Source: Nanobdellota archaeon
GTDB lineage: Archaea; Nanobdellota; Nanobdellia; Nanobdellales; Nanobdellaceae
NCBI GenBank assembly: GCA_020697515.1
Contig: JAIXNB010000017.1
Coordinates: 1 to 7,924 of the forward strand
Length of the DNA stretch: 7,924 nt
Reading direction: 5' to 3'
Part shown: one piece after another, positions 3,241 to 7,924 of the stretch
Layout of the letters: every line of letters begins with the position of its first letter
Numbering within the stretch: the first letter of the stretch is position 1
Position numbers and translations under genes: made by a program
Notes under the pieces: generated by a model
What the model was told of the DNA's origin: nothing
The model's input: only the letters and a program-made list of their open reading frames with translations
Database searches by the model: none

Positions 3241-3288
3241 TAAAATTTTGGATTTTATAAAAATTTAAAGAAACATATACTAGAAAAT
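3241..3288. promoter_or_regulatory. Divergent promoter spacer with archaeal TATA-like elements
   Basis: A 48-bp, almost pure A/T spacer lies between the argS start (3240, minus) and the 3289 ATG (plus). TTTTATAAAA at 3253-3262 is about 27-36 nt upstream of 3289, which fits a short or leaderless mRNA. TTTAAA at 3264-3269 read on the minus strand sits about 25-30 nt from the argS ATG. Confidence 0.35.
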
Positions 3289-3690
3289 ATGTCTCTATCT
3301 ACCACAACCAGACCTGATAAAGGAACCCTCTCTGATAGGGTTCTAAAGGTGAAAAGGTCAGTTGAGTTACCAGCAAATGTTATAGTTATTCTTATAATAG
3401 CAGTTATGGTCTTGCTGGGGTTAATTATGTTCTTTTTTAATAATTATATTAAACTATCTCCTCCCATAATTGGGCTGTCTAAGAACACAAGTGAAGAGCT
3501 AAAAGGAGTTTTACCTTGTAGTAATCTATCTGAATTTGTTATAAAACGGATGTGTATTTCTGCATGTTATAAAATTGGACATGGTTATAGATATATAGGT
3601 GAGTATCATATAATGAATGTATTAGGAGTTATAAAGTGTAAATGTTCGAATATAAGCAATATAGAATATGTAGAGATAGAATGTCAGTGA
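3289..3690 (+). CDS. Membrane-anchored cysteine-rich small protein A (paralog of the next gene)
   Basis: 133 aa. A hydrophobic helix (ANVIVILIIAVMVLLGLIMFFF, aa 29-50) follows VKRSVELP. The ectodomain has 6 Cys (77, 89, 93, 117, 119, 132) and sequons NTS, NLS, NIS. First gene after the promoter spacer. An in-frame GTG at 3349 would give MKRSVELPANVIV as an alternative start. Confidence 0.7.
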   Translation: MSLSTTTRPDKGTLSDRVLKVKRSVELPANVIVILIIAVMVLLGLIMFFFNNYIKLSPPIIGLSKNTSEELKGVLPCSNLSEFVIKRMCISACYKIGHGYRYIGEYHIMNVLGVIKCKCSNISNIEYVEIECQ

Positions 3691-4016
3691 GAGCACAGGC
3701 AATACAAACAATAGTTTTAATTATCCTTGCCTTGATAGTACTAATCGCAGGTATAGTTATAATCAACAAAATATCTTCTAGCGCTGGTAGAGGTATATCT
3801 GAATTAGAAAATATAAAAAAGTCAACCGCTGGGGATATATTAGGAAAATGTGCATTGCTTTCTTCACAGGAGATATTTGAAAAATGTAAAAAAGTTTGTG
3901 AAGATGCCTGTTGCAGTTATAAAGATTATAAACTAACTGATGGAAAACTACTATGCATATGCTATTGTCATGATGGTGCTATAAGGTATAATCGAAAAAT
4001 ATGGGTTGATTGCTAA
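3681..4016 (+). CDS. Prepilin-like (class III signal) cysteine-rich small protein B
   Basis: The ORF track starts this gene at 3642. I prefer the in-frame ATG at 3681, which overlaps the upstream stop (ATGTCAGTGA) and gives MSVRAQAIQTIVLIILALIVLIAGIVII. That is a short basic N-terminus, then R-A|Q-A, then a hydrophobic helix. The ectodomain has 9 Cys and shares C-x11-C-x3-C with protein A. The stop overlaps the next start (TAATG). Confidence 0.7.
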   Translation: MSVRAQAIQTIVLIILALIVLIAGIVIINKISSSAGRGISELENIKKSTAGDILGKCALLSSQEIFEKCKKVCEDACCSYKDYKLTDGKLLCICYCHDGAIRYNRKIWVDC

Positions 4017-4105
4017 TGCATGAGGAAGTAGTAGAGATTATTTATAGAGTTATTATTTTCGTAGTACTAATGGGAATAGTGTTATATTTATTTATGATAG
4101 TTTAA
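4016..4105 (+). CDS. Micro-ORF, 29-aa single-pass membrane peptide (not in the ORF track)
   Basis: Hand translation gives MHEEVVEIIYRVIIFVVLMGIVLYLFMIV*. The ATG overlaps the previous TAA by 1 nt (TAATG) and the stop lies 6 nt before the next ATG (4112). It fills the only apparent gap in the operon. It is short, so a chance ORF in AT-rich DNA remains possible. Confidence 0.4.
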   Translation: MHEEVVEIIYRVIIFVVLMGIVLYLFMIV

Positions 4106-4111
4106 TATTTA

Positions 4112-5401
4112 ATGAGAATATCCTCAATATCATTTTTATATGTACGGCTTATAGTAGTAATAATTACGTTTATACTAGCAGTATATATTTTAACTAAGTT
4201 TGTAAATGTGTTAAATTATGATGGTAGATTTAGTTGCAAGATGGGCGCTGCTGTTGCTAATGTCTTCCTAGGTCCAGTACCAGATAAAGAAAAAGCTTGG
4301 ATGTTTCTAGCAGCTGCTCCCGCTGCAGCCGTGCTCTTAGGACTTGCATATGATACATGGAAAGATAGGGATATAATATACATAAGGGATACAATTACGA
4401 GGACCACGATGCCTGGGATGGTACATATTAAAGCTGAAAGAAGAGTTTGGCGTCTTAATGAGAAAGCTCTTAAAGATCTAATGAATGGGGCAAAAAGAGC
4501 CACAAAAGGTATTAGTGGTTCAATATTTAAGATGGCTAGTAAAAGTGGTAAATCTTTATTAGCTGGAGGAATAATAGCTGCATTAAGCGCTATACTTTTA
4601 GGATTTTTAGATGATGATTCCTCATCAAAGAAACTTCCTTTTACAGACGTTCTTATGAAAATAGCAATATCAGCCCTAAAACTGTGTTATCCAAAACCGA
4701 TTATAATACCTGTAGACAGCATACAGTTAAGTTGTCATAAACTCGATGAGTATTTGAAAGAACAATTAACCAGAGACGCGTATACTGCTTTGCAGGAACT
4801 AATTAAGGAAAATAAAATAGAGACATGCTCTCCCGATTCCCCAGATTGGATAGAATTATTCCTGGATATAGAAATTGCCAAGTTAGGAAAAATGACTTTT
4901 GAAGAAGGTCTGAGAGATACAGAATTACCTATACCAACGCTACATTATGTTCTCTTCTTAGAGAAGATTTCTGCATTAAACAAGGGAGGAAATAAAGAAT
5001 GGAAATTCGGGGAAGCTGAAATGGTGTGTTGGTGGAACCTAATAAGATTCAGAGGGAAGAAAAAGGTCAGCTATTATAAGGAAATCTATGGAAAAGTAAA
5101 GGAGGTATATGATAGTGGAGATGTAAACAATATAGATACTAGTAAGAACATTTGTTGGATGATTTTAGAAGAGCTTGGAAAGAGTAAGGAAGATATACTG
5201 ACTAATAGCGAGGGTAATAACTATATAGCACCATTTTCAGATGAAAATAGCTGTACTGGAGATATTAAGGAGTGTGCAAAAGGAAGGTATGTTGCTAGTT
5301 CTATAGAATCCTCAAATTATAAGACTAATAGCATTGCAGTGAACTTCTATCATGCTGTTGGTAGATTGCTTGTTTATTTAGTGCACTACAATGTTGAATA
5401 G
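4112..5401 (+). CDS. Polytopic membrane protein D with a large Cys-containing C-terminal domain; unknown function
   Basis: 429 aa. N-terminal anchor MRISSISFLYVRLIVVIITFILAVYIL. Ala-rich helix AWMFLAAAPAAAVLLGLAY (aa 62-80). A very basic loop spans aa 81-147. A second helix is SLLAGGIIAALSAILLGFL (aa 148-166). The following domain of about 260 aa has 7 Cys. No recognised family. Confidence 0.75.
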   Translation: MRISSISFLYVRLIVVIITFILAVYILTKFVNVLNYDGRFSCKMGAAVANVFLGPVPDKEKAWMFLAAAPAAAVLLGLAYDTWKDRDIIYIRDTITRTTMPGMVHIKAERRVWRLNEKALKDLMNGAKRATKGISGSIFKMASKSGKSLLAGGIIAALSAILLGFLDDDSSSKKLPFTDVLMKIAISALKLCYPKPIIIPVDSIQLSCHKLDEYLKEQLTRDAYTALQELIKENKIETCSPDSPDWIELFLDIEIAKLGKMTFEEGLRDTELPIPTLHYVLFLEKISALNKGGNKEWKFGEAEMVCWWNLIRFRGKKKVSYYKEIYGKVKEVYDSGDVNNIDTSKNICWMILEELGKSKEDILTNSEGNNYIAPFSDENSCTGDIKECAKGRYVASSIESSNYKTNSIAVNFYHAVGRLLVYLVHYNVE

Positions 5402-5567
5402 ACTAGTTGCAATAGTAATAGCGATTATCGCGCTTCTTATCTTAATTTTATTTGCTATGAAGATAGTAACACCAAAAATATTTGAGAATTTGGATATAAT
5501 CCGAGATATTCTACCTATAACACTTATATTAAAGAACAACTATTATAGAAAATGGATAAATTTATAG
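5391..5567 (+). CDS. Small ORF, 58-aa N-terminally anchored protein E (not in the ORF track)
   Basis: Hand translation gives MLNRLVAIVIAIIALLILILFAMKIVTPKIFENLDIIRDILPITLILKNNYYRKWINL*. It overlaps the gene D end by 11 nt and the gene F start by 16 nt. It has the same short basic N-terminus plus hydrophobic helix as its neighbours. Confidence 0.45.
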   Translation: MLNRLVAIVIAIIALLILILFAMKIVTPKIFENLDIIRDILPITLILKNNYYRKWINL

Positions 5568-5914
5568 TAGCAGTCATATTAATGCTGGTTGGTACATTGT
5601 TATTATTATATTTCTTATTTTACTTTAGCAAAGGTTCTATAGATATATTCAATCAAAAATATAATGAGACTGCAAAACGTATAGTAAGTGATCCAATTTT
5701 ACCAGTTTTGTTTATTTTTGATGTTAGAAGACTAAAAAGATCATCAGTACAAAATTTTATAGTATACCTAATACTAGCTTTGGTGGTTATTTTAGCATTC
5801 CTGTTTTTATATAATAAAATATCACTGAGTGTAAAACATGGCAGTGAGAATATATTTGGAATAGCCAATAAAACAATAGGAGAACCCCAAATAACTAATA
5901 TAACTACTGAGTAA
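5552..5914 (+). CDS. Two-helix membrane protein F
   Basis: 120 aa. Helix 1 is MDKFIVAVILMLVGTLLLLYFLFYF. Helix 2, NFIVYLILALVVILAFLFLY, follows RRLKRSSVQ. Sequons NET, NKT and NIT are present. Same strand and packing as the operon, so preferred over the antisense ORF 5653-5868. Confidence 0.65.
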   Translation: MDKFIVAVILMLVGTLLLLYFLFYFSKGSIDIFNQKYNETAKRIVSDPILPVLFIFDVRRLKRSSVQNFIVYLILALVVILAFLFLYNKISLSVKHGSENIFGIANKTIGEPQITNITTE

Positions 5915-5919
5915 TACTA

Positions 5920-6594
5920 ATGGGTGTGAGGATACTAACTAGTATTTTATATGATGCTATCATAGTTATAATAATACTATTTATAACTATCTATTTAGTT
6001 ATACCTTTACTTTTCCCAGATAATGAGCTATTGCAGTTAAAGAACTCTTTGAAGGCAGTATGTGAAAATAATCGTGCATCTCGGGATTTCCATATATCGT
6101 TGAAAAACTATGATCTATTATTTAAAAAGGGTGCCAAAGAATATACAGTATCTATATTATTATGTGATGATTATAAGATATACAACAATACTAGGTATAG
6201 AGAAAACTGTAAAGTTGTATATGAGTTAGATTGTGGTGTTAGTAAGGTGGTACTTAAATCCGAAAGTACAAAAATCAAGAGTTTTACTCTAGCAGGAAAA
6301 TGTTATAGTATTTACCCAAAACCTTTTTATGAGGTTCAAATCCCAAAACCCTTTGAAGATTTGATTTGTATCCCTATCGGCCTTCACTTTACTCTTATAA
6401 TAGGTCGTAAATACATATCTTCTGTTAGCGGTTTTTCACAAAAAGATTCCTTCGCATTAGGAGATTATTGCTATATTGATTATTGTAAATATGACGCTTG
6501 TGGAGAGAATGATGATATTCTAACTAAAGAGATAACGGGGATTCTTACAAGGCAGGATGATACACTGTACGTGGAAATATATTCAGCTAAATAA
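5920..6594 (+). CDS. N-terminally anchored cysteine-rich protein G
   Basis: 224 aa. The anchor is MGVRILTSILYDAIIVIIILFITIYLVIPLLF. The ectodomain has 9 Cys, including CYIDYCKYDAC, and a duplicated PKPF motif. It starts 5 nt after gene F and its stop overlaps the next start (TAATG at 6592-6596). Confidence 0.75.
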   Translation: MGVRILTSILYDAIIVIIILFITIYLVIPLLFPDNELLQLKNSLKAVCENNRASRDFHISLKNYDLLFKKGAKEYTVSILLCDDYKIYNNTRYRENCKVVYELDCGVSKVVLKSESTKIKSFTLAGKCYSIYPKPFYEVQIPKPFEDLICIPIGLHFTLIIGRKYISSVSGFSQKDSFALGDYCYIDYCKYDACGENDDILTKEITGILTRQDDTLYVEIYSAK

Positions 6595-7679
6595 TGGAGG
6601 ATAAAATATTACAGATTTTGGCGTCATCCTTAATATTTGTGGTTCTTTTATTTATAATTATAAAACTCTACTATTATTCATCACATATTTTTCCGGGAGA
6701 AACATACCCTATAACTTTGGAACTAGCTACTGCAATATCTTATAGCGTCTCTATTCCAGGAGATATAGAGATAGATTTACCTGCATATATAATTTATGAA
6801 AGCAAAGGAGATCCCCGTTCAACACTTGCAACCGAATTAAAAATAAATAATGGGAAATATAGAAATAATATAGTTTATGGGGTGTGTTACTATAGAGATT
6901 TAAAAGACGATGTAAAAAGAGCGTTAATAGATAGTACCATTAATGCAATTAATGGTATTCTTATGGGGTCTACATTAGGATGGCTAGCAAGACTTGCAGG
7001 AGTTGGATCTACAATAGCTTTATCCGGAGGAGTAGAGTGGTCGCTAGAGATAGTAGGACAAATTGCAATTAATTATTGCTCTAACTGGTTATATAAGGAA
7101 GCAGACTTTGAAAAAATATATTTATTGAGTCAAAAATATTTTGTGGATTCGGTTACAGAGGACATTAAAAGAGAAATTAAAAAAAAGAAATCCAGAAGCA
7201 CTGCAGAAATAATCGCAAATTATGCTATAATTTGTGCAACTGCTGCAGCTGTACTCTTTGATGGTTTAGGGCTTATTGCTCTAGCCATTACTACCATAAT
7301 TGCTAGAATAGCTATCCCATTAGTGTATTGGGCTACTGGCCCAGATCTATTGAAGAATTGTTGGTATGGAAATCCAAAAAATTGGGGATTTATAAAAATA
7401 AATGAAGATATGTACTTTTGGAATCCTGAATTTTCCTTAAAGGTAGAGATAGCAAAAAAAGAGAACGGTACTATGATATTATCGAATGTTTCTGAACGAG
7501 AGGAAGAATCCCAGAGTATGGGCGGTAGTGAAGAGGTTGTAAGGTGGTTTTTTATAAACCCATCTCCAGTTATAAAGGATATGAATAATCATACGTATAT
7601 AACTATTAAAATGATTAAGTTGAAAAAAGAAGAAAAATCAAAAGAGTTAAGGATAACTGCGTTTATTGAATCAAAATGA
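6594..7679 (+). CDS. Membrane protein H with Gly/Ala-rich helical hairpin regions; unknown function
   Basis: 361 aa. The anchor is MEDKILQILASSLIFVVLLFIIIKLYYY. Gly-rich hydrophobic region ILMGSTLGWLARLAGVGSTIALSGG (aa 122-146, inside the aa 113-160 stretch). Basic loop KREIKKKKSRS. Second hydrophobic block AEIIANYAIICATAAAVLFDGLGLIALAITTIIARIAIPLVYWA (aa 204-247). The C-terminal domain is acidic with sequons NGT, NVS and NHT. Confidence 0.75.
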   Translation: MEDKILQILASSLIFVVLLFIIIKLYYYSSHIFPGETYPITLELATAISYSVSIPGDIEIDLPAYIIYESKGDPRSTLATELKINNGKYRNNIVYGVCYYRDLKDDVKRALIDSTINAINGILMGSTLGWLARLAGVGSTIALSGGVEWSLEIVGQIAINYCSNWLYKEADFEKIYLLSQKYFVDSVTEDIKREIKKKKSRSTAEIIANYAIICATAAAVLFDGLGLIALAITTIIARIAIPLVYWATGPDLLKNCWYGNPKNWGFIKINEDMYFWNPEFSLKVEIAKKENGTMILSNVSEREEESQSMGGSEEVVRWFFINPSPVIKDMNNHTYITIKMIKLKKEEKSKELRITAFIESK

Positions 7680-7924
7680 GAGTTCAAGATATACTTATTT
7701 CAGTGATAGTTCTCTCATTAACTTTACTTACGATATTATTACAATATAATCTAATAAAGATATATACACTCAAATATGAAACAGTCCCTCTTGAACTCTT
7801 AGTACTTGCTGATGAAATACGTATGGAGAAATTATTATATTCTCAATATTTATCTTCCGGAGATCCCAATTATATGTTTTACTTTGATTCGCGTATAAAA
7901 GATAGTATTATAGAAGAAAACTTA
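7676..7924 (+). CDS. N-terminally anchored protein I, truncated 3' by the window edge (not in the ORF track)
   Basis: Its ATG overlaps the gene H stop (ATGA at 7676-7679). The frame stays open for 83 codons to the window end: MRVQDILISVIVLSLTLLTILLQYNLIKIYTLKYETVPLELLVLADEIRMEKLLYSQYLSSGDPNYMFYFDSRIKDSIIEENL. It shares the post-helix motif ET-x-P..LEL with protein H. Confidence 0.6.
   Translation, partial: MRVQDILISVIVLSLTLLTILLQYNLIKIYTLKYETVPLELLVLADEIRMEKLLYSQYLSSGDPNYMFYFDSRIKDSIIEENL

What the first reader, a model, noticed from the sequence alone, without database searches (positions are those of the whole stretch)
3642..3770. Start-codon re-annotation exposes a canonical archaeal class III (prepilin) signal in protein B
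The ORF track begins this gene at 3642 (MFEYKQYRICRDR...), which lies entirely inside gene A. The in-frame ATG at 3681 overlaps the gene A stop (ATGTCAGTGA), a typical coupled junction. It yields MSVRA|QAIQTIVLIILALIVLIAGIVII. This fits the established class III or type IV prepilin pattern: a short charged leader, K/R at -2, G/A at -1, Q at +1, then a hydrophobic helix of about 20 residues. It is the one protein in the cluster with a clean match, which makes it a candidate filament subunit, with the other anchored proteins as possible minor or accessory subunits.
Basis: partly seen in the sequence, partly recalled or inferred. Interest (0 to 1): 0.65.

Follow-up and report, generated by a model that had tools for sequence, protein, structure and literature searches.

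The report
Pilin-like surface protein of a nanoarchaeon
The gene does start later than the longest ORF suggests, and it encodes a small membrane-anchored, cysteine-rich surface protein of a nanoarchaeon whose front end resembles a type IV pilin signal, though the neighbouring gene A fits that pattern far better.

Summary
The sequence observation is correct. ATG 3642 and the in-frame ATG 3681 exist, and gene A stops at 3688-3690. There is also an in-frame GTG at 3687, giving a GTGA overlap. Two orthologues (67% and 62% identity) start at the A-stop overlap as MRS/MRA and carry stop codons in the would-be upstream extension, so the 3642 start is a longest-ORF artefact.

The window comes from a Nanopusillaceae archaeon (Nanoarchaeota). 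MSVRA|QAIQT fits the class III pattern in this window. Across 11 syntenic B-family members, however, position -1 is A, S or N and never G, and Q at +1 is unique to this window. One such match among about nine N-terminally anchored proteins is what chance would give.

The stronger case is gene A. Its family (59 members aligned, e.g. Nst1_024) has [KR][KR]G|Q with variable leaders of 4-24 aa. A distant member lies in a real type IV filament locus (ATPase plus platform) in an Aenigmatarchaeote.

B is a full-length tandem paralogue of A: TM helix, linker, and a confidently modelled disulfide-rich alpha/beta knob with no fold match. B is probably a minor pilin-like subunit. No ATPase, platform or peptidase lies nearby, and cleavage is unproven.

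The parts
3253..3269 (+). A/T-rich TATA-like box (TTTTATAAAAATTTAAA), about 20-36 nt upstream of the gene A ATG. Probable operon promoter giving a leaderless or near-leaderless mRNA.
   Evidence: Read directly. The same string at the same distance from the ATG is conserved in orthologous loci L014 and L095. Promoter function is inferred, not measured.
3289..3690 (+). Gene A (133 aa). It has a 24-aa variable basic leader (3289-3360), a KRS|VELPANV junction, a hydrophobic helix, a linker, and a six-Cys head domain. It is a diverged member of the Nanoarchaeota Nst1_024 family with a class III-type junction.
   Evidence: Searches show variable leader versus conserved mature part. One search gives the in-register match to TFF-locus pilin-like proteins of L099. 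One search gives weak UpsB / TIGR04205 / BasC hits for family members.
3642..3680 (+). Spurious 5' extension of the B ORF (MFEYKQYRICRDR). It is not part of gene B and codes only in gene A's frame.
   Evidence: Both orthologues have stop codons in this frame. The orthologues and more distant homologues start at the junction.
3681..4016 (+). Gene B (111 aa from ATG 3681, or 109 aa from GTG 3687, which aligns with the orthologues' ATG in an ATGA/GTGA overlap). Translation is coupled to gene A.
3681..3695 (+). Putative leader MSVRA (or MRA), with the proposed class III cleavage between A5 (3693-3695) and Q6 (3696-3698).
   Evidence: The motif is present. R at -2 is conserved as K/R in 11 of 11 family members, and -1 is A/S/N. 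Cleavage itself is not shown.
3696..3764 (+). Hydrophobic H-domain / transmembrane helix QAIQTIVLIILALIVLIAGIVII (residues 6-28). 'AI' at +2/+3 is invariant in the family, with a polar Q/E/D/S at +4.
   Evidence: (helix 3-48 in the AF2 model).
3765..3833 (+). Ser/Gly-rich linker (residues 29-51), low confidence in the model.
   Evidence: pLDDT below 50 for residues 32-36 and 38-54.
3834..4013 (+). C-terminal disulfide-rich head domain: one helix carrying CxxxC packed on a three-stranded sheet carrying CxC. Six Cys are invariant (C57, C69, C73, C92, C96, C111). No fold match was found.
   Evidence: invariant Cys; pLDDT 89.7, pTM 0.72; Foldseek PDB, best E 0.27-0.58; paralogous to A's head domain.
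4016..4105 (+). Unannotated 29-aa single-helix membrane peptide gene (MHEEVVEIIYRVIIFVVLMGIVLYLFMIV), with a TAATG overlap on the B stop.
   Evidence: Read directly. It is conserved as MYEDILEIIYRVVIFVILIGIVLYLFMIL in L095, and its start is conserved in L014.
4112..7924 (+). Rest of the operon: C (4112-5401, polytopic), a 58-aa peptide (5391-5567), D (5552-5914), E (5920-6594), F (6594-7679, polytopic), and G (7676 onward, running off the window). All have an N-terminal hydrophobic helix after a 3-5-aa leader. All are restricted to Nanopusillaceae.
   Evidence: no family hits; synteny and distribution.

Best explanation
Gene B encodes a small pilin-like surface protein of a Nanopusillaceae archaeon and is a tandem paralogue of gene A.

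**Proposed mechanism**
1. A and B are co-transcribed from the TATA box upstream of A. B is translated by coupling at the A stop (ATG 3681 or GTG 3687).
2. The short basic leader holds the N-terminus in the cytoplasm while the helix inserts into the membrane and the C-terminal part is exported.
3. A class III (prepilin-type) signal peptidase removes MSVRA or MRA at A5|Q6.
4. The retained hydrophobic helix either packs into the core of a type IV filament built mainly from A-family subunits, or keeps B at the filament base or in the membrane.
5. The disulfide-locked alpha/beta knob is displayed outside, plausibly for contact with the host cell or the envelope.

**Shown:** the start site, the coupling, the anchor helix, paralogy with A, the conserved six-Cys domain, and the class III signature and filament-locus relatives of the A family.

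**Inferred:** cleavage of B, incorporation into a filament, and any role in adhesion.
For: - **Start and coupling:**
- **Organism:** ArgRS is 58-63% identical to Nanopusillaceae / Nanoclepta, in an archaeal context of Cdc6, PolD and RpoL.
- **Motif in B:** R at -2, A at -1, followed by 23 uncharged residues. RA|Q is a known archaeal processing site (PMC4371748).
- **B-family conservation:** K/R at -2 in 11 of 11 members and a small residue at -1.
- **A-family junction:** [KR][KR]G|Q in most of 59 members, with leaders of 4-24 aa. The conservation boundary falls exactly at KR[SA].
- **G and S interchange at -1** between near-identical A orthologues, e.g. MVKKG|QSLPINT versus MVKKS|QSLPINT. Serine is therefore tolerated at -1 in this lineage.
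- **Link to a real filament locus:** A's mature N-terminus aligns in register with MSKG|IALPVEYLVILIIAVVVLL and KG|ISLPVNT. These come from an Aenigmatarchaeota locus with a FlaI/TadA-type ATPase, a T2SSF-like protein and more than 10 'MKG|' small proteins.
- **Weak in-register hits** of A-family members to the UpsB pilin (E 2.5e-4), TIGR04205 class III (9e-4 to 0.03) and BasC.
- **Paralogy:** A and B align full length (hhalign 91%, E 9e-7, all Cys aligned). Their N-terminal families also align in register (96.8%).
- **Cluster-wide signature:** in Nanoclepta, 8 of 11 cluster proteins have [KR][GAS] directly before the helix, including RG|ISISD with D at +5.
Against: - No member of the B family has G at -1. 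Two have N. Q at +1 is unique to the window.
- Under the FlaFind pattern as I recall it (from memory, not verified), RAQAIQ fails at the last position.
- B and the B family match no Pfam or NCBIfam pilin or class III model. This is weak evidence, because the pilin-like proteins of the real filament locus L099 also fail.
- No filament ATPase, platform or A24 peptidase lies within 10 kb in L001/L002, L008, L010, L096-L098 or L100-L102. The T2SSE-like gene downstream is the PINA-type ATPase.
- A 2016 census found no prepilin peptidase in two nanoarchaeal genomes (PMC4858521).
- In the window lineage, proteins C-G lack a [KR][GAS] junction.
- The AF2 model places a low-confidence linker between the anchor helix and the head, unlike classical pilins.
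- The profile-profile scores are inflated by transmembrane composition.
Confidence: 0.5

Rival explanations
1. B is an uncleaved type II signal-anchor protein. The short basic N-terminus stays in the cytoplasm, the helix is a permanent membrane anchor, and the cysteine-rich knob is tethered to the cell surface by the flexible linker. The conserved small polar residue after K/R (S/A/N) would be a helix N-cap at the membrane interface, not a protease site.
For: - Position -1 is S/A/N and never G in the B family. S, N, T and G are the classical N-cap residues.
- One canonical match among about nine anchored proteins is the chance expectation.
- No pilin model hit.
- No filament machinery nearby.
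- A low-confidence Ser/Gly linker separates the helix from the head.
- Some family members have no leader at all, e.g. L015 and L099 MELP.N and window G MRVQD. Processing therefore cannot be obligatory for all members.
- Two nanoarchaeal genomes had no recognisable prepilin peptidase in 2016.
Against: - The paralogous A family has a textbook [KR][KR]G|Q junction, with variable leaders and relatives in a real filament locus.
- B is a full-length paralogue of A.
- The enrichment of [KR][GAS] directly before the helix across the Nanoclepta and L008 clusters far exceeds the G+A+S background of roughly 12-17%.
Confidence: 0.33
2. B carries an ordinary Sec signal peptide. Signal peptidase I cuts after the hydrophobic stretch (SSA|G, residues 32-34|35) and releases a soluble 77-aa cysteine-rich peptide.
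For: Small residues at -3/-1 follow the helix in the window (S-S-A) and in L095 (S-N-A). The head domain is a compact disulfide-rich module of the type often secreted.
Against: - The hydrophobic stretch is 22-24 residues, which is long for a cleaved signal peptide.
- L014 has T at -1.
- The 55-62-aa B-family members of other lineages, and the paralogue A, have no such site.
Confidence: 0.08
3. The longest ORF is right. B starts at ATG 3642 with a 13-aa cytoplasmic extension, so the RA|Q motif lies 17 residues in.
For: ATG 3642 is preceded by AGGAG 13 nt upstream. Several gene callers called the 124-aa form.
Against: - Stop codons occupy that frame in both orthologues.
- All homologues start at the junction.
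- These clusters do not appear to use Shine-Dalgarno sites.
- It would require a 49-nt overlap with gene A.
Confidence: 0.02

Closest known systems
Archaeal type IV pilins / class III signal peptide proteins of the Epd type (M. maripaludis EpdA-E, processed by EppA)
   Same: - Short basic leader, K/R at -2, G/A at -1 and Q at +1. EpdA is RA|QI (PMC4371748).
- A hydrophobic helix of about 20 residues is retained in the mature protein.
- Small subunit size.
- Several such genes in a row.
- Pilin genes are often unlinked to the ATPase.
   Different: - B lacks the DUF361 signature QxSxExxxL. It has I at +3 and T at +5.
- Q at +1 is not conserved in B's own family.
- No match to PF04021.
- No EppA, PibD or FlaK was identified.
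- The head is a six-Cys alpha/beta knob on a flexible linker, not an Ig-like or beta-sandwich domain.
Nanoarchaeota Nst1_024 family (gene A family; 'hypothetical protein' in Nanobsidianus, Nanopusillus and Nanoclepta genomes)
   Same: - The same locus next to ArgRS.
- The same architecture of leader, K/R-small junction and helix.
- B is a full-length paralogue of the window's A (hhalign 91%), and the N-terminal families align in register.
   Different: - The A family has G at -1 and Q at +1 in most members, and an LP.N motif at +3 to +6.
- The B family has S/A/N at -1, invariant AI at +2/+3, and no proline.
Bacterial Flp/Tad pilins and other very short pilins
   Same: In other lineages the mature B-family proteins are only about 50 residues, essentially a single helix plus a short glycosylatable tail. 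This is comparable in size to Flp pilins.
   Different: They lack the G|xxxxEY Flp motif. The window's B carries an extra 57-aa cysteine-rich domain. No Tad-type machinery lies nearby.
Sulfolobus bindosome / Ups pilin-like proteins (BasC, UpsB)
   Same: Weak in-register N-terminal matches of A-family members to the UpsB and BasC models. The concept of a class III signal on proteins that display a functional head domain is also shared.
   Different: The scores are far below the family cut-offs. There are no matches for B. The head domains differ.
Cysteine-stabilised alpha/beta (defensin-like) peptides
   Same: CxxxC in a helix and CxC in a beta-strand, six conserved Cys, and a small alpha + 3-strand fold.
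   Different: The CxC is in the middle strand, and the last Cys is at the C-terminus. Foldseek finds no defensin or toxin match. B is membrane-anchored. This is a resemblance only, not membership.

Membership tests
Class III (prepilin-type) signal peptide substrate / type IV pilin-like protein | Short, positively charged leader directly preceding the hydrophobic stretch at the extreme N-terminus | tested here: met
   MSVR-A (or MR-A) before residues 6-28. This holds only after the start correction, which the orthologues support.
Class III (prepilin-type) signal peptide substrate / type IV pilin-like protein | K/R at -2 and G/A at -1, conserved among homologues | tested here: inconclusive
   The window has R-A. 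The B family has K/R at -2 in 11 of 11 members, but -1 is A,S,A,S,S,N,N,S,S,S,S and never G. G and S interchange at -1 in the paralogous A family.
Class III (prepilin-type) signal peptide substrate / type IV pilin-like protein | About 20 uncharged hydrophobic residues immediately after the site, retained in the mature protein | tested here: met
   QAIQTIVLIILALIVLIAGIVII carries no charged residue. Retention in the mature protein cannot be tested here.
Class III (prepilin-type) signal peptide substrate / type IV pilin-like protein | Match to curated pilin, archaellin or class III signal models in Pfam and NCBIfam, such as TIGR04205 and UpsB | tested here: not met
   No such hit for B or the B family even at E up to 10. 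The test is insensitive: pilin-like proteins in the real TFF locus L099 also fail. A-family members give weak UpsB / TIGR04205 / BasC hits.
Class III (prepilin-type) signal peptide substrate / type IV pilin-like protein | Genome encodes an A24-family prepilin peptidase (PibD/FlaK/EppA) | not testable with these tools
   Only 10 kb or less around each locus could be read, and none was found there. The literature reports archaella in Nanoclepta and Nanopusillus (PMC10117864), but no recognisable peptidase in two nanoarchaeal genomes in 2016 (PMC4858521).
Class III (prepilin-type) signal peptide substrate / type IV pilin-like protein | Genomic association with a filament ATPase and platform protein | tested here: not met
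   None within 10 kb in nine Nanopusillaceae loci. The downstream T2SSE-like gene is PINA-type. A distant A-family member does sit in such a locus. Pilin genes are often unlinked (PMC3244431).
Class III (prepilin-type) signal peptide substrate / type IV pilin-like protein | Leader actually removed, with the mature N-terminus at +1 | not testable with these tools
   Needs N-terminal proteomics or an in vitro cleavage assay.
EppA-type / DUF361 pilins (Q at +1, QxSxExxxL) | Conserved Q at +1 with S at +3 and E at +5 | tested here: not met
   B reads Q-A-I-Q-T. Q at +1 is absent from all other B-family members (L, L, I, L, I, I, D, D, D, D). No PF04021 hit.
Classical type IV pilin fold (continuous alpha-1 helix whose C-terminal half packs on a beta-sheet head) | N-terminal helix continuous with the globular domain | tested here: inconclusive
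   AF2 gives a helix at 3-48, but residues 32-54 have pLDDT below 50. The head uses its own helix (62-75) on a 3-stranded sheet. There is no pilin among the Foldseek hits. The alignment has only 2 sequences.
Cysteine-stabilised alpha/beta defensin-like fold | Structural match to CS-alpha/beta peptides | tested here: not met
   The Cys spacing resembles CxxxC...CxC. Foldseek against PDB gives no defensin or toxin hit. The best TM-score is 0.61, to a designed cystatin-fold protein, at E about 1.

The most novel reading that the evidence does not exclude
The ArgRS-adjacent A/B gene pair, conserved throughout terrestrial Nanoarchaeota, encodes the pilins that the 2016 census of archaeal type IV pili could not find in nanoarchaea. 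In this lineage both subunits have acquired a previously undescribed disulfide-locked alpha/beta head. Together with the 6-9 downstream Nanopusillaceae-specific membrane proteins, they would build a lineage-specific surface filament or attachment organelle that the ectosymbiont uses to recognise or hold its crenarchaeal host. The filament might be processed by a peptidase too divergent to be recognised, or for leaderless members not processed at all.
Probability: 0.25. Interest if true: 0.7.

Novelty: new member of a known kind. Interest (0 to 1): 0.45.

Why it matters
Nanoarchaeota are obligate ectosymbionts, and how they attach to their hosts is unknown. A published census found type IV filament ATPases in nanoarchaea but could not identify the pilins that go with them. 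The A/B pair next to ArgRS is a concrete, testable candidate for those pilins. It is present in Nanobsidianus, Nanopusillus, Nanoclepta and many hot-spring metagenomes, and is annotated everywhere as 'hypothetical' or mislabelled FliL.

For annotation, the case shows two things. The longest-ORF rule hides the signal of B, and current pilin models miss DPANN pilins even inside real filament loci.

On its own, however, the finding (one more protein with a class III-like N-terminus) is ordinary for archaea.

Tried and rejected
1. **Direct homology searches for B.** The word-based search found only B itself. Exhaustive HMMER found a single orthologue. B as such is confined to one narrow lineage.
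2. **Family libraries.** Pfam and NCBIfam on all cluster proteins gave only random transmembrane hits.
3. **PDB sequence searches** with A-family and B-family profiles found nothing relevant.
4. **Foldseek** of full-length B and of the head domain against PDB gave no significant match. I considered a defensin-like (CS-alpha/beta) reading from the Cys spacing and dropped it as a membership claim.
5. **First metagenome scan** with the C-family profile found nothing. The second, with ArgRS, gave only three close loci.
6. **Shine-Dalgarno argument for ATG 3642** (AGGAG 13 nt upstream) was rejected, because no SD pattern appears at 38 gene starts in these clusters.
7. **Downstream T2SSE-like ATPase as a pilus motor** was rejected. 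It is the PIN-domain PINA / PRK13764 type.
8. **C or F as a hidden platform protein or peptidase.** There is no T2SSF or A24 signal, and their topology puts the large domains outside. This was not pursued structurally.
9. **A24 peptidase next to the Aenigmatarchaeota filament locus** was searched for and not found.
10. **FlaFind rule.** The original FlaFind and PibD specificity papers were not held, so the pattern I applied is from memory.
11. **Rfam and tRNA scans** of the window were empty.
Full report
**What the window is.** The window has about 30% G+C. On the minus strand it carries an archaeal adenylate kinase, an unknown 151-aa gene and arginyl-tRNA synthetase. A plus-strand operon follows, made of proteins that each begin with a hydrophobic helix. 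The ArgRS is 58-63% identical to those of Nanopusillaceae MAGs and Candidatus Nanoclepta minutus. Contigs carrying an identical gene B continue into a PINA-type ATPase, RpoL, the PolD small subunit and Cdc6. The organism is therefore a member of the Nanoarchaeota (DPANN).

**The observation.** All stated coordinates are correct. ATG sits at 3642, an in-frame ATG at 3681, and the gene A stop TGA at 3688-3690. The product from 3681 reads MSVRAQAIQTIVLIILALIVLIAGIVII.... I add an in-frame GTG at 3687, which overlaps the A stop as GTGA.

The only detectable orthologues are P0002 on L014 (67% identity) and a gene on L095 (62%). Both start MRS.../MRA... at an ATGA overlap with their gene A stop. In both, the frame upstream of the junction is interrupted by several stop codons. 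The ATG equivalent to 3642 is still present there, but only as part of gene A's Lys-Cys-Lys-Cys codons.

The ATG six bases upstream of the overlap (window 3681) is present in all three loci. It is created by gene A's penultimate Cys codon. The true start is therefore either 3681 or GTG 3687. Either gives R at -2 and A at -1.

The AGGAG 13 nt before 3642 is not evidence, because 38 gene starts in these clusters show no Shine-Dalgarno pattern. The 3642 start is a longest-ORF artefact and the re-annotation stands.

**Is the motif more than chance?** Within the window alone it is not. About nine consecutive proteins here have an N-terminal helix preceded by a few residues, usually including K/R. 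G+A make up 8-10% of residues. One [KR][GA] junction is thus the expected number, and B is the only one.

The comparative picture for B's own family is mixed. Syntenic homologues give these junctions:

| Source | Junction |
|---|---|
| Window | MSVRA\|QAIQT |
| L014 | MRS\|LAIQT |
| L095 | MRA\|LAIQN |
| Nanoclepta | MKKRS\|IAIET |
| L008 / L096 | MKRKS\|LAIEK |
| L097 / L098 | MKKKN\|IAIDK |
| L016 | MKRS\|DAISF |
| L017 | MKRS\|DAIDF |
| Nst1 (L100) | MKKS\|DAINF |
| Nanopusillus (L101) | MKRS\|DVINF |

K/R at -2 is invariant. Position -1 is always small (A/S/N) but never G. Q at +1 occurs only in this window. 'AI' at +2/+3 is invariant except for Nanopusillus (L101), which has VI, and +4 is usually polar or acidic (N in the Nst1 and Nanopusillus members).

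No Pfam or NCBIfam pilin or class III model is hit by B or its family, even at E up to 10.

**Gene A changes the picture.** A profile of gene A's N-terminal family retrieved 61 proteins, almost all from Nanoarchaeota. They include Nanobsidianus Nst1_024, Nanopusillus acidilobi and Nanoclepta, and all are annotated as hypothetical or spuriously as FliL. Aligned on the junction (n=59):
- -1 is G 36, A 9, S 9, R 4, T 1.
- -2 is K/R in 58 of 59, and -3 is K/R in 57.
- +1 is Q in 45.
- Leader length ranges from 4 to 24 residues.

The commonest form, MV[KR]KG|QS[LI].I[ND]T, has the same KG|Q junction as the EppA-processed Epd pilins of Methanococcus (PMC4371748). Near-identical orthologues differ only by G versus S at -1, so serine is tolerated there in this lineage.

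In the window's own lineage, A starts at an ATG about 20-36 nt after a conserved TATA-like box. Its leader is 24, 14, 20 or 24 residues long in four orthologues and hardly alignable. From K22-R23 onward the proteins are nearly identical: KR[SA][VL]ELPANVIVI.... That is the conservation pattern of a removed leader.

Members of the A family give weak but in-register hits to the UpsB pilin (E 2.5e-4), TIGR04205 'class III signal peptide domain protein' (9e-4 to 0.03) and the bindosome protein BasC.

**A link to real filament machinery.** The most distant A-family hit (P0071, E 7e-3) lies in an Aenigmatarchaeota locus, L099. That locus has a FlaI/TadA-type secretion ATPase (NCBIfam E about 1e-35; Pfam T2SSE 3e-13). 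Next comes a 681-aa membrane protein with a full-length though weak T2SSF match (E 0.026). More than ten small proteins follow, starting MKG| or similar.

Two of them, MSKG|IALPVEYLVILIIAVVVLL and KG|ISLPVNTAVIVIVALIVLV, align in register with the window's KRS|VELPANVIVILIIAVMVLL and with Nst1_024 (58% over 26 residues). These pilin-like proteins of a real filament locus also fail to hit any curated pilin model. The negative profile result for A and B is therefore uninformative.

**How B relates to A.** In the window lineage, A and B are tandem paralogues over their whole length. hhalign gives 91% probability and E 9e-7, with 91 aligned columns from the helix to the C-terminus and every conserved Cys aligned. 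The N-terminal families also align in register (96.8%), although transmembrane composition inflates such scores.

AlphaFold2 (2-sequence alignment) models B in three parts:
- a long helix at residues 3-48;
- a low-confidence Ser/Gly-rich stretch at 32-54;
- a compact head, with helix 62-75 carrying C69xxxC73, then three strands with C92xC94xC96 in the middle one and C111 at the end.

Modelled alone, the head reaches pLDDT 89.7 and pTM 0.72. Six Cys are invariant among orthologues. Foldseek against PDB finds nothing significant for either model. The best E is 0.27-0.58 and the best TM-score is 0.61, to a designed cystatin-fold protein. There are no pilins and no defensins among the hits.

In other lineages the B-family protein is only 55-62 residues: helix plus a tail rich in N-x-S/T sequons.

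**The rest of the cluster.** Proteins C-G and two small peptides are conserved in order in Nanoclepta and other Nanopusillaceae. They are confined to that family: the C-profile search gave 8 hits, all Nanopusillaceae where a source names an organism.

In Nanoclepta, 8 of 11 of these proteins have [KR][GAS] immediately before the helix, including MMRG|ISISD (D at +5), MKG|VIG and VERA|IVII. In the window lineage most have lost that junction. C and F are polytopic and cannot be pilins. In Nanobsidianus and Nanopusillus only the A/B pair sits next to ArgRS.

No filament ATPase, platform protein or A24 peptidase lies within 10 kb in any of these loci. The surroundings are housekeeping genes: MCM, aIF2-beta, aIF1A, fibrillarin and EF-1-alpha.

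**Literature context.**
- Terrestrial Nanoarchaeota have archaellum genes, and Nanoclepta shows archaella (PMC10117864, PMC3655853).
[quoted passage not shown] It also notes that two nanoarchaea lacked a recognisable prepilin peptidase (PMC4858521).

**Verdict.** The start-codon correction is confirmed. B is a real, translationally coupled gene for an N-terminally anchored, exported, disulfide-rich small protein.

Its N-terminus is pilin-like, and its paralogue A belongs to a family with strong class III signal characteristics and filament-locus relatives. The most likely reading (about 0.5) is therefore that B is a minor or accessory pilin-like subunit processed at A5|Q6. The main rival (about 0.33) is an uncleaved signal anchor. 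Signal-peptidase-I release of the head (about 0.08) and the long ORF (about 0.02) are unlikely.

The claim that B is the single clean match, and hence the filament subunit, is not supported. A's family is the better candidate. In kind, this is a new member of a known class (archaeal class III signal / pilin-like proteins). Its interest lies mainly in pointing to the unannotated, ArgRS-linked A/B pair as candidate nanoarchaeal pilins.

Noticed in passing
window 3289-3690 (gene A); homologues P0011-P0071: Gene A belongs to a family of roughly 65-130-aa proteins found across Nanoarchaeota (e.g. Nst1_024). The family has a [KR][KR]G|Q junction and variable leaders of 4-24 aa. It is annotated everywhere as hypothetical or mislabelled 'FliL'. 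It is a better pilin candidate than B.
   Followed up: yes
window 4016-4105 (+): An unannotated 29-aa single-helix membrane peptide gene overlaps the B stop as TAATG. It is conserved at protein level in L095 (MYEDILEIIYRVVIFVILIGIVLYLFMIL), and its start is conserved in L014. An analogous small peptide gene lies between the B-family gene and C in L098.
   Followed up: partly
window 5391-5567 (+): A 58-aa membrane peptide (MLNRLVAIVIAIIALLILILF...) overlaps the end of C and the start of D. It is conserved in L095 (2779-2874), so it is probably a real gene. Gene callers omitted it on L001 and L002.
   Followed up: partly
L015 143-403 (-); L099 9515-9706 (+); window 7676 onward (gene G): Some family members have no leader at all. 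The initiator Met sits where +1 would be: MELPINT..., MELPMNV..., and MRVQD aligned to RG|ISISD. These would be naturally 'pre-cleaved' pilin-like proteins that need no peptidase.
   Followed up: no
L100-L102, about 6-7 kb either side of the A/B pair: A VKOR-family gene and a DsbA/thioredoxin-like gene lie close to the A/B pair in Nanobsidianus and Nanopusillus. This is consistent with an extracytoplasmic disulfide-forming system serving cysteine-rich surface proteins.
   Followed up: no
window 6594 (F), L010 5614-6648, L096 8437-8577, L097 5154-5294, L098 about 9880-9990: A second recurrent N-terminal motif, M-[DE]-[ILF]-G-[DE]-[FIM] (MDIGE, MEIGE, MELGE, MEFGD), heads the polytopic F family and several 35-46-aa peptides of the cluster. 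The leader is acidic rather than basic, with G at position 4. Its meaning is unknown.
   Followed up: no
window 4112-5401 (gene C); P0005; L095 1599-2789: Gene C also has start-codon ambiguity. Databases hold 386-aa and 396-aa forms that lack the N-terminal helix. The ORF from 4112 (MRISSISFLYVRLIVV...) and its L095 counterpart (MKKSAVPFLYVRLIVV...) include that helix, and it is conserved.
   Followed up: partly
L001 6603-8432 / L002 6341-8170 (-), downstream of the cluster: The only T2SSE-like ATPase near the cluster is the PIN + KH domain PRK13764 / PINA type (Holliday-junction branch-migration ATPase family). It is not a filament assembly ATPase and should not be read as part of a pilus locus.
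   Followed up: yes
window 3834-4013 and 3517-3687: The six-Cys head domains of B and A (C-x11-CxxxC ... CxC ... C) are modelled with high confidence as one helix on a three-stranded sheet. They have no significant fold match in PDB. This may be an undescribed small disulfide-rich domain, found so far only in this narrow lineage.
   Followed up: partly
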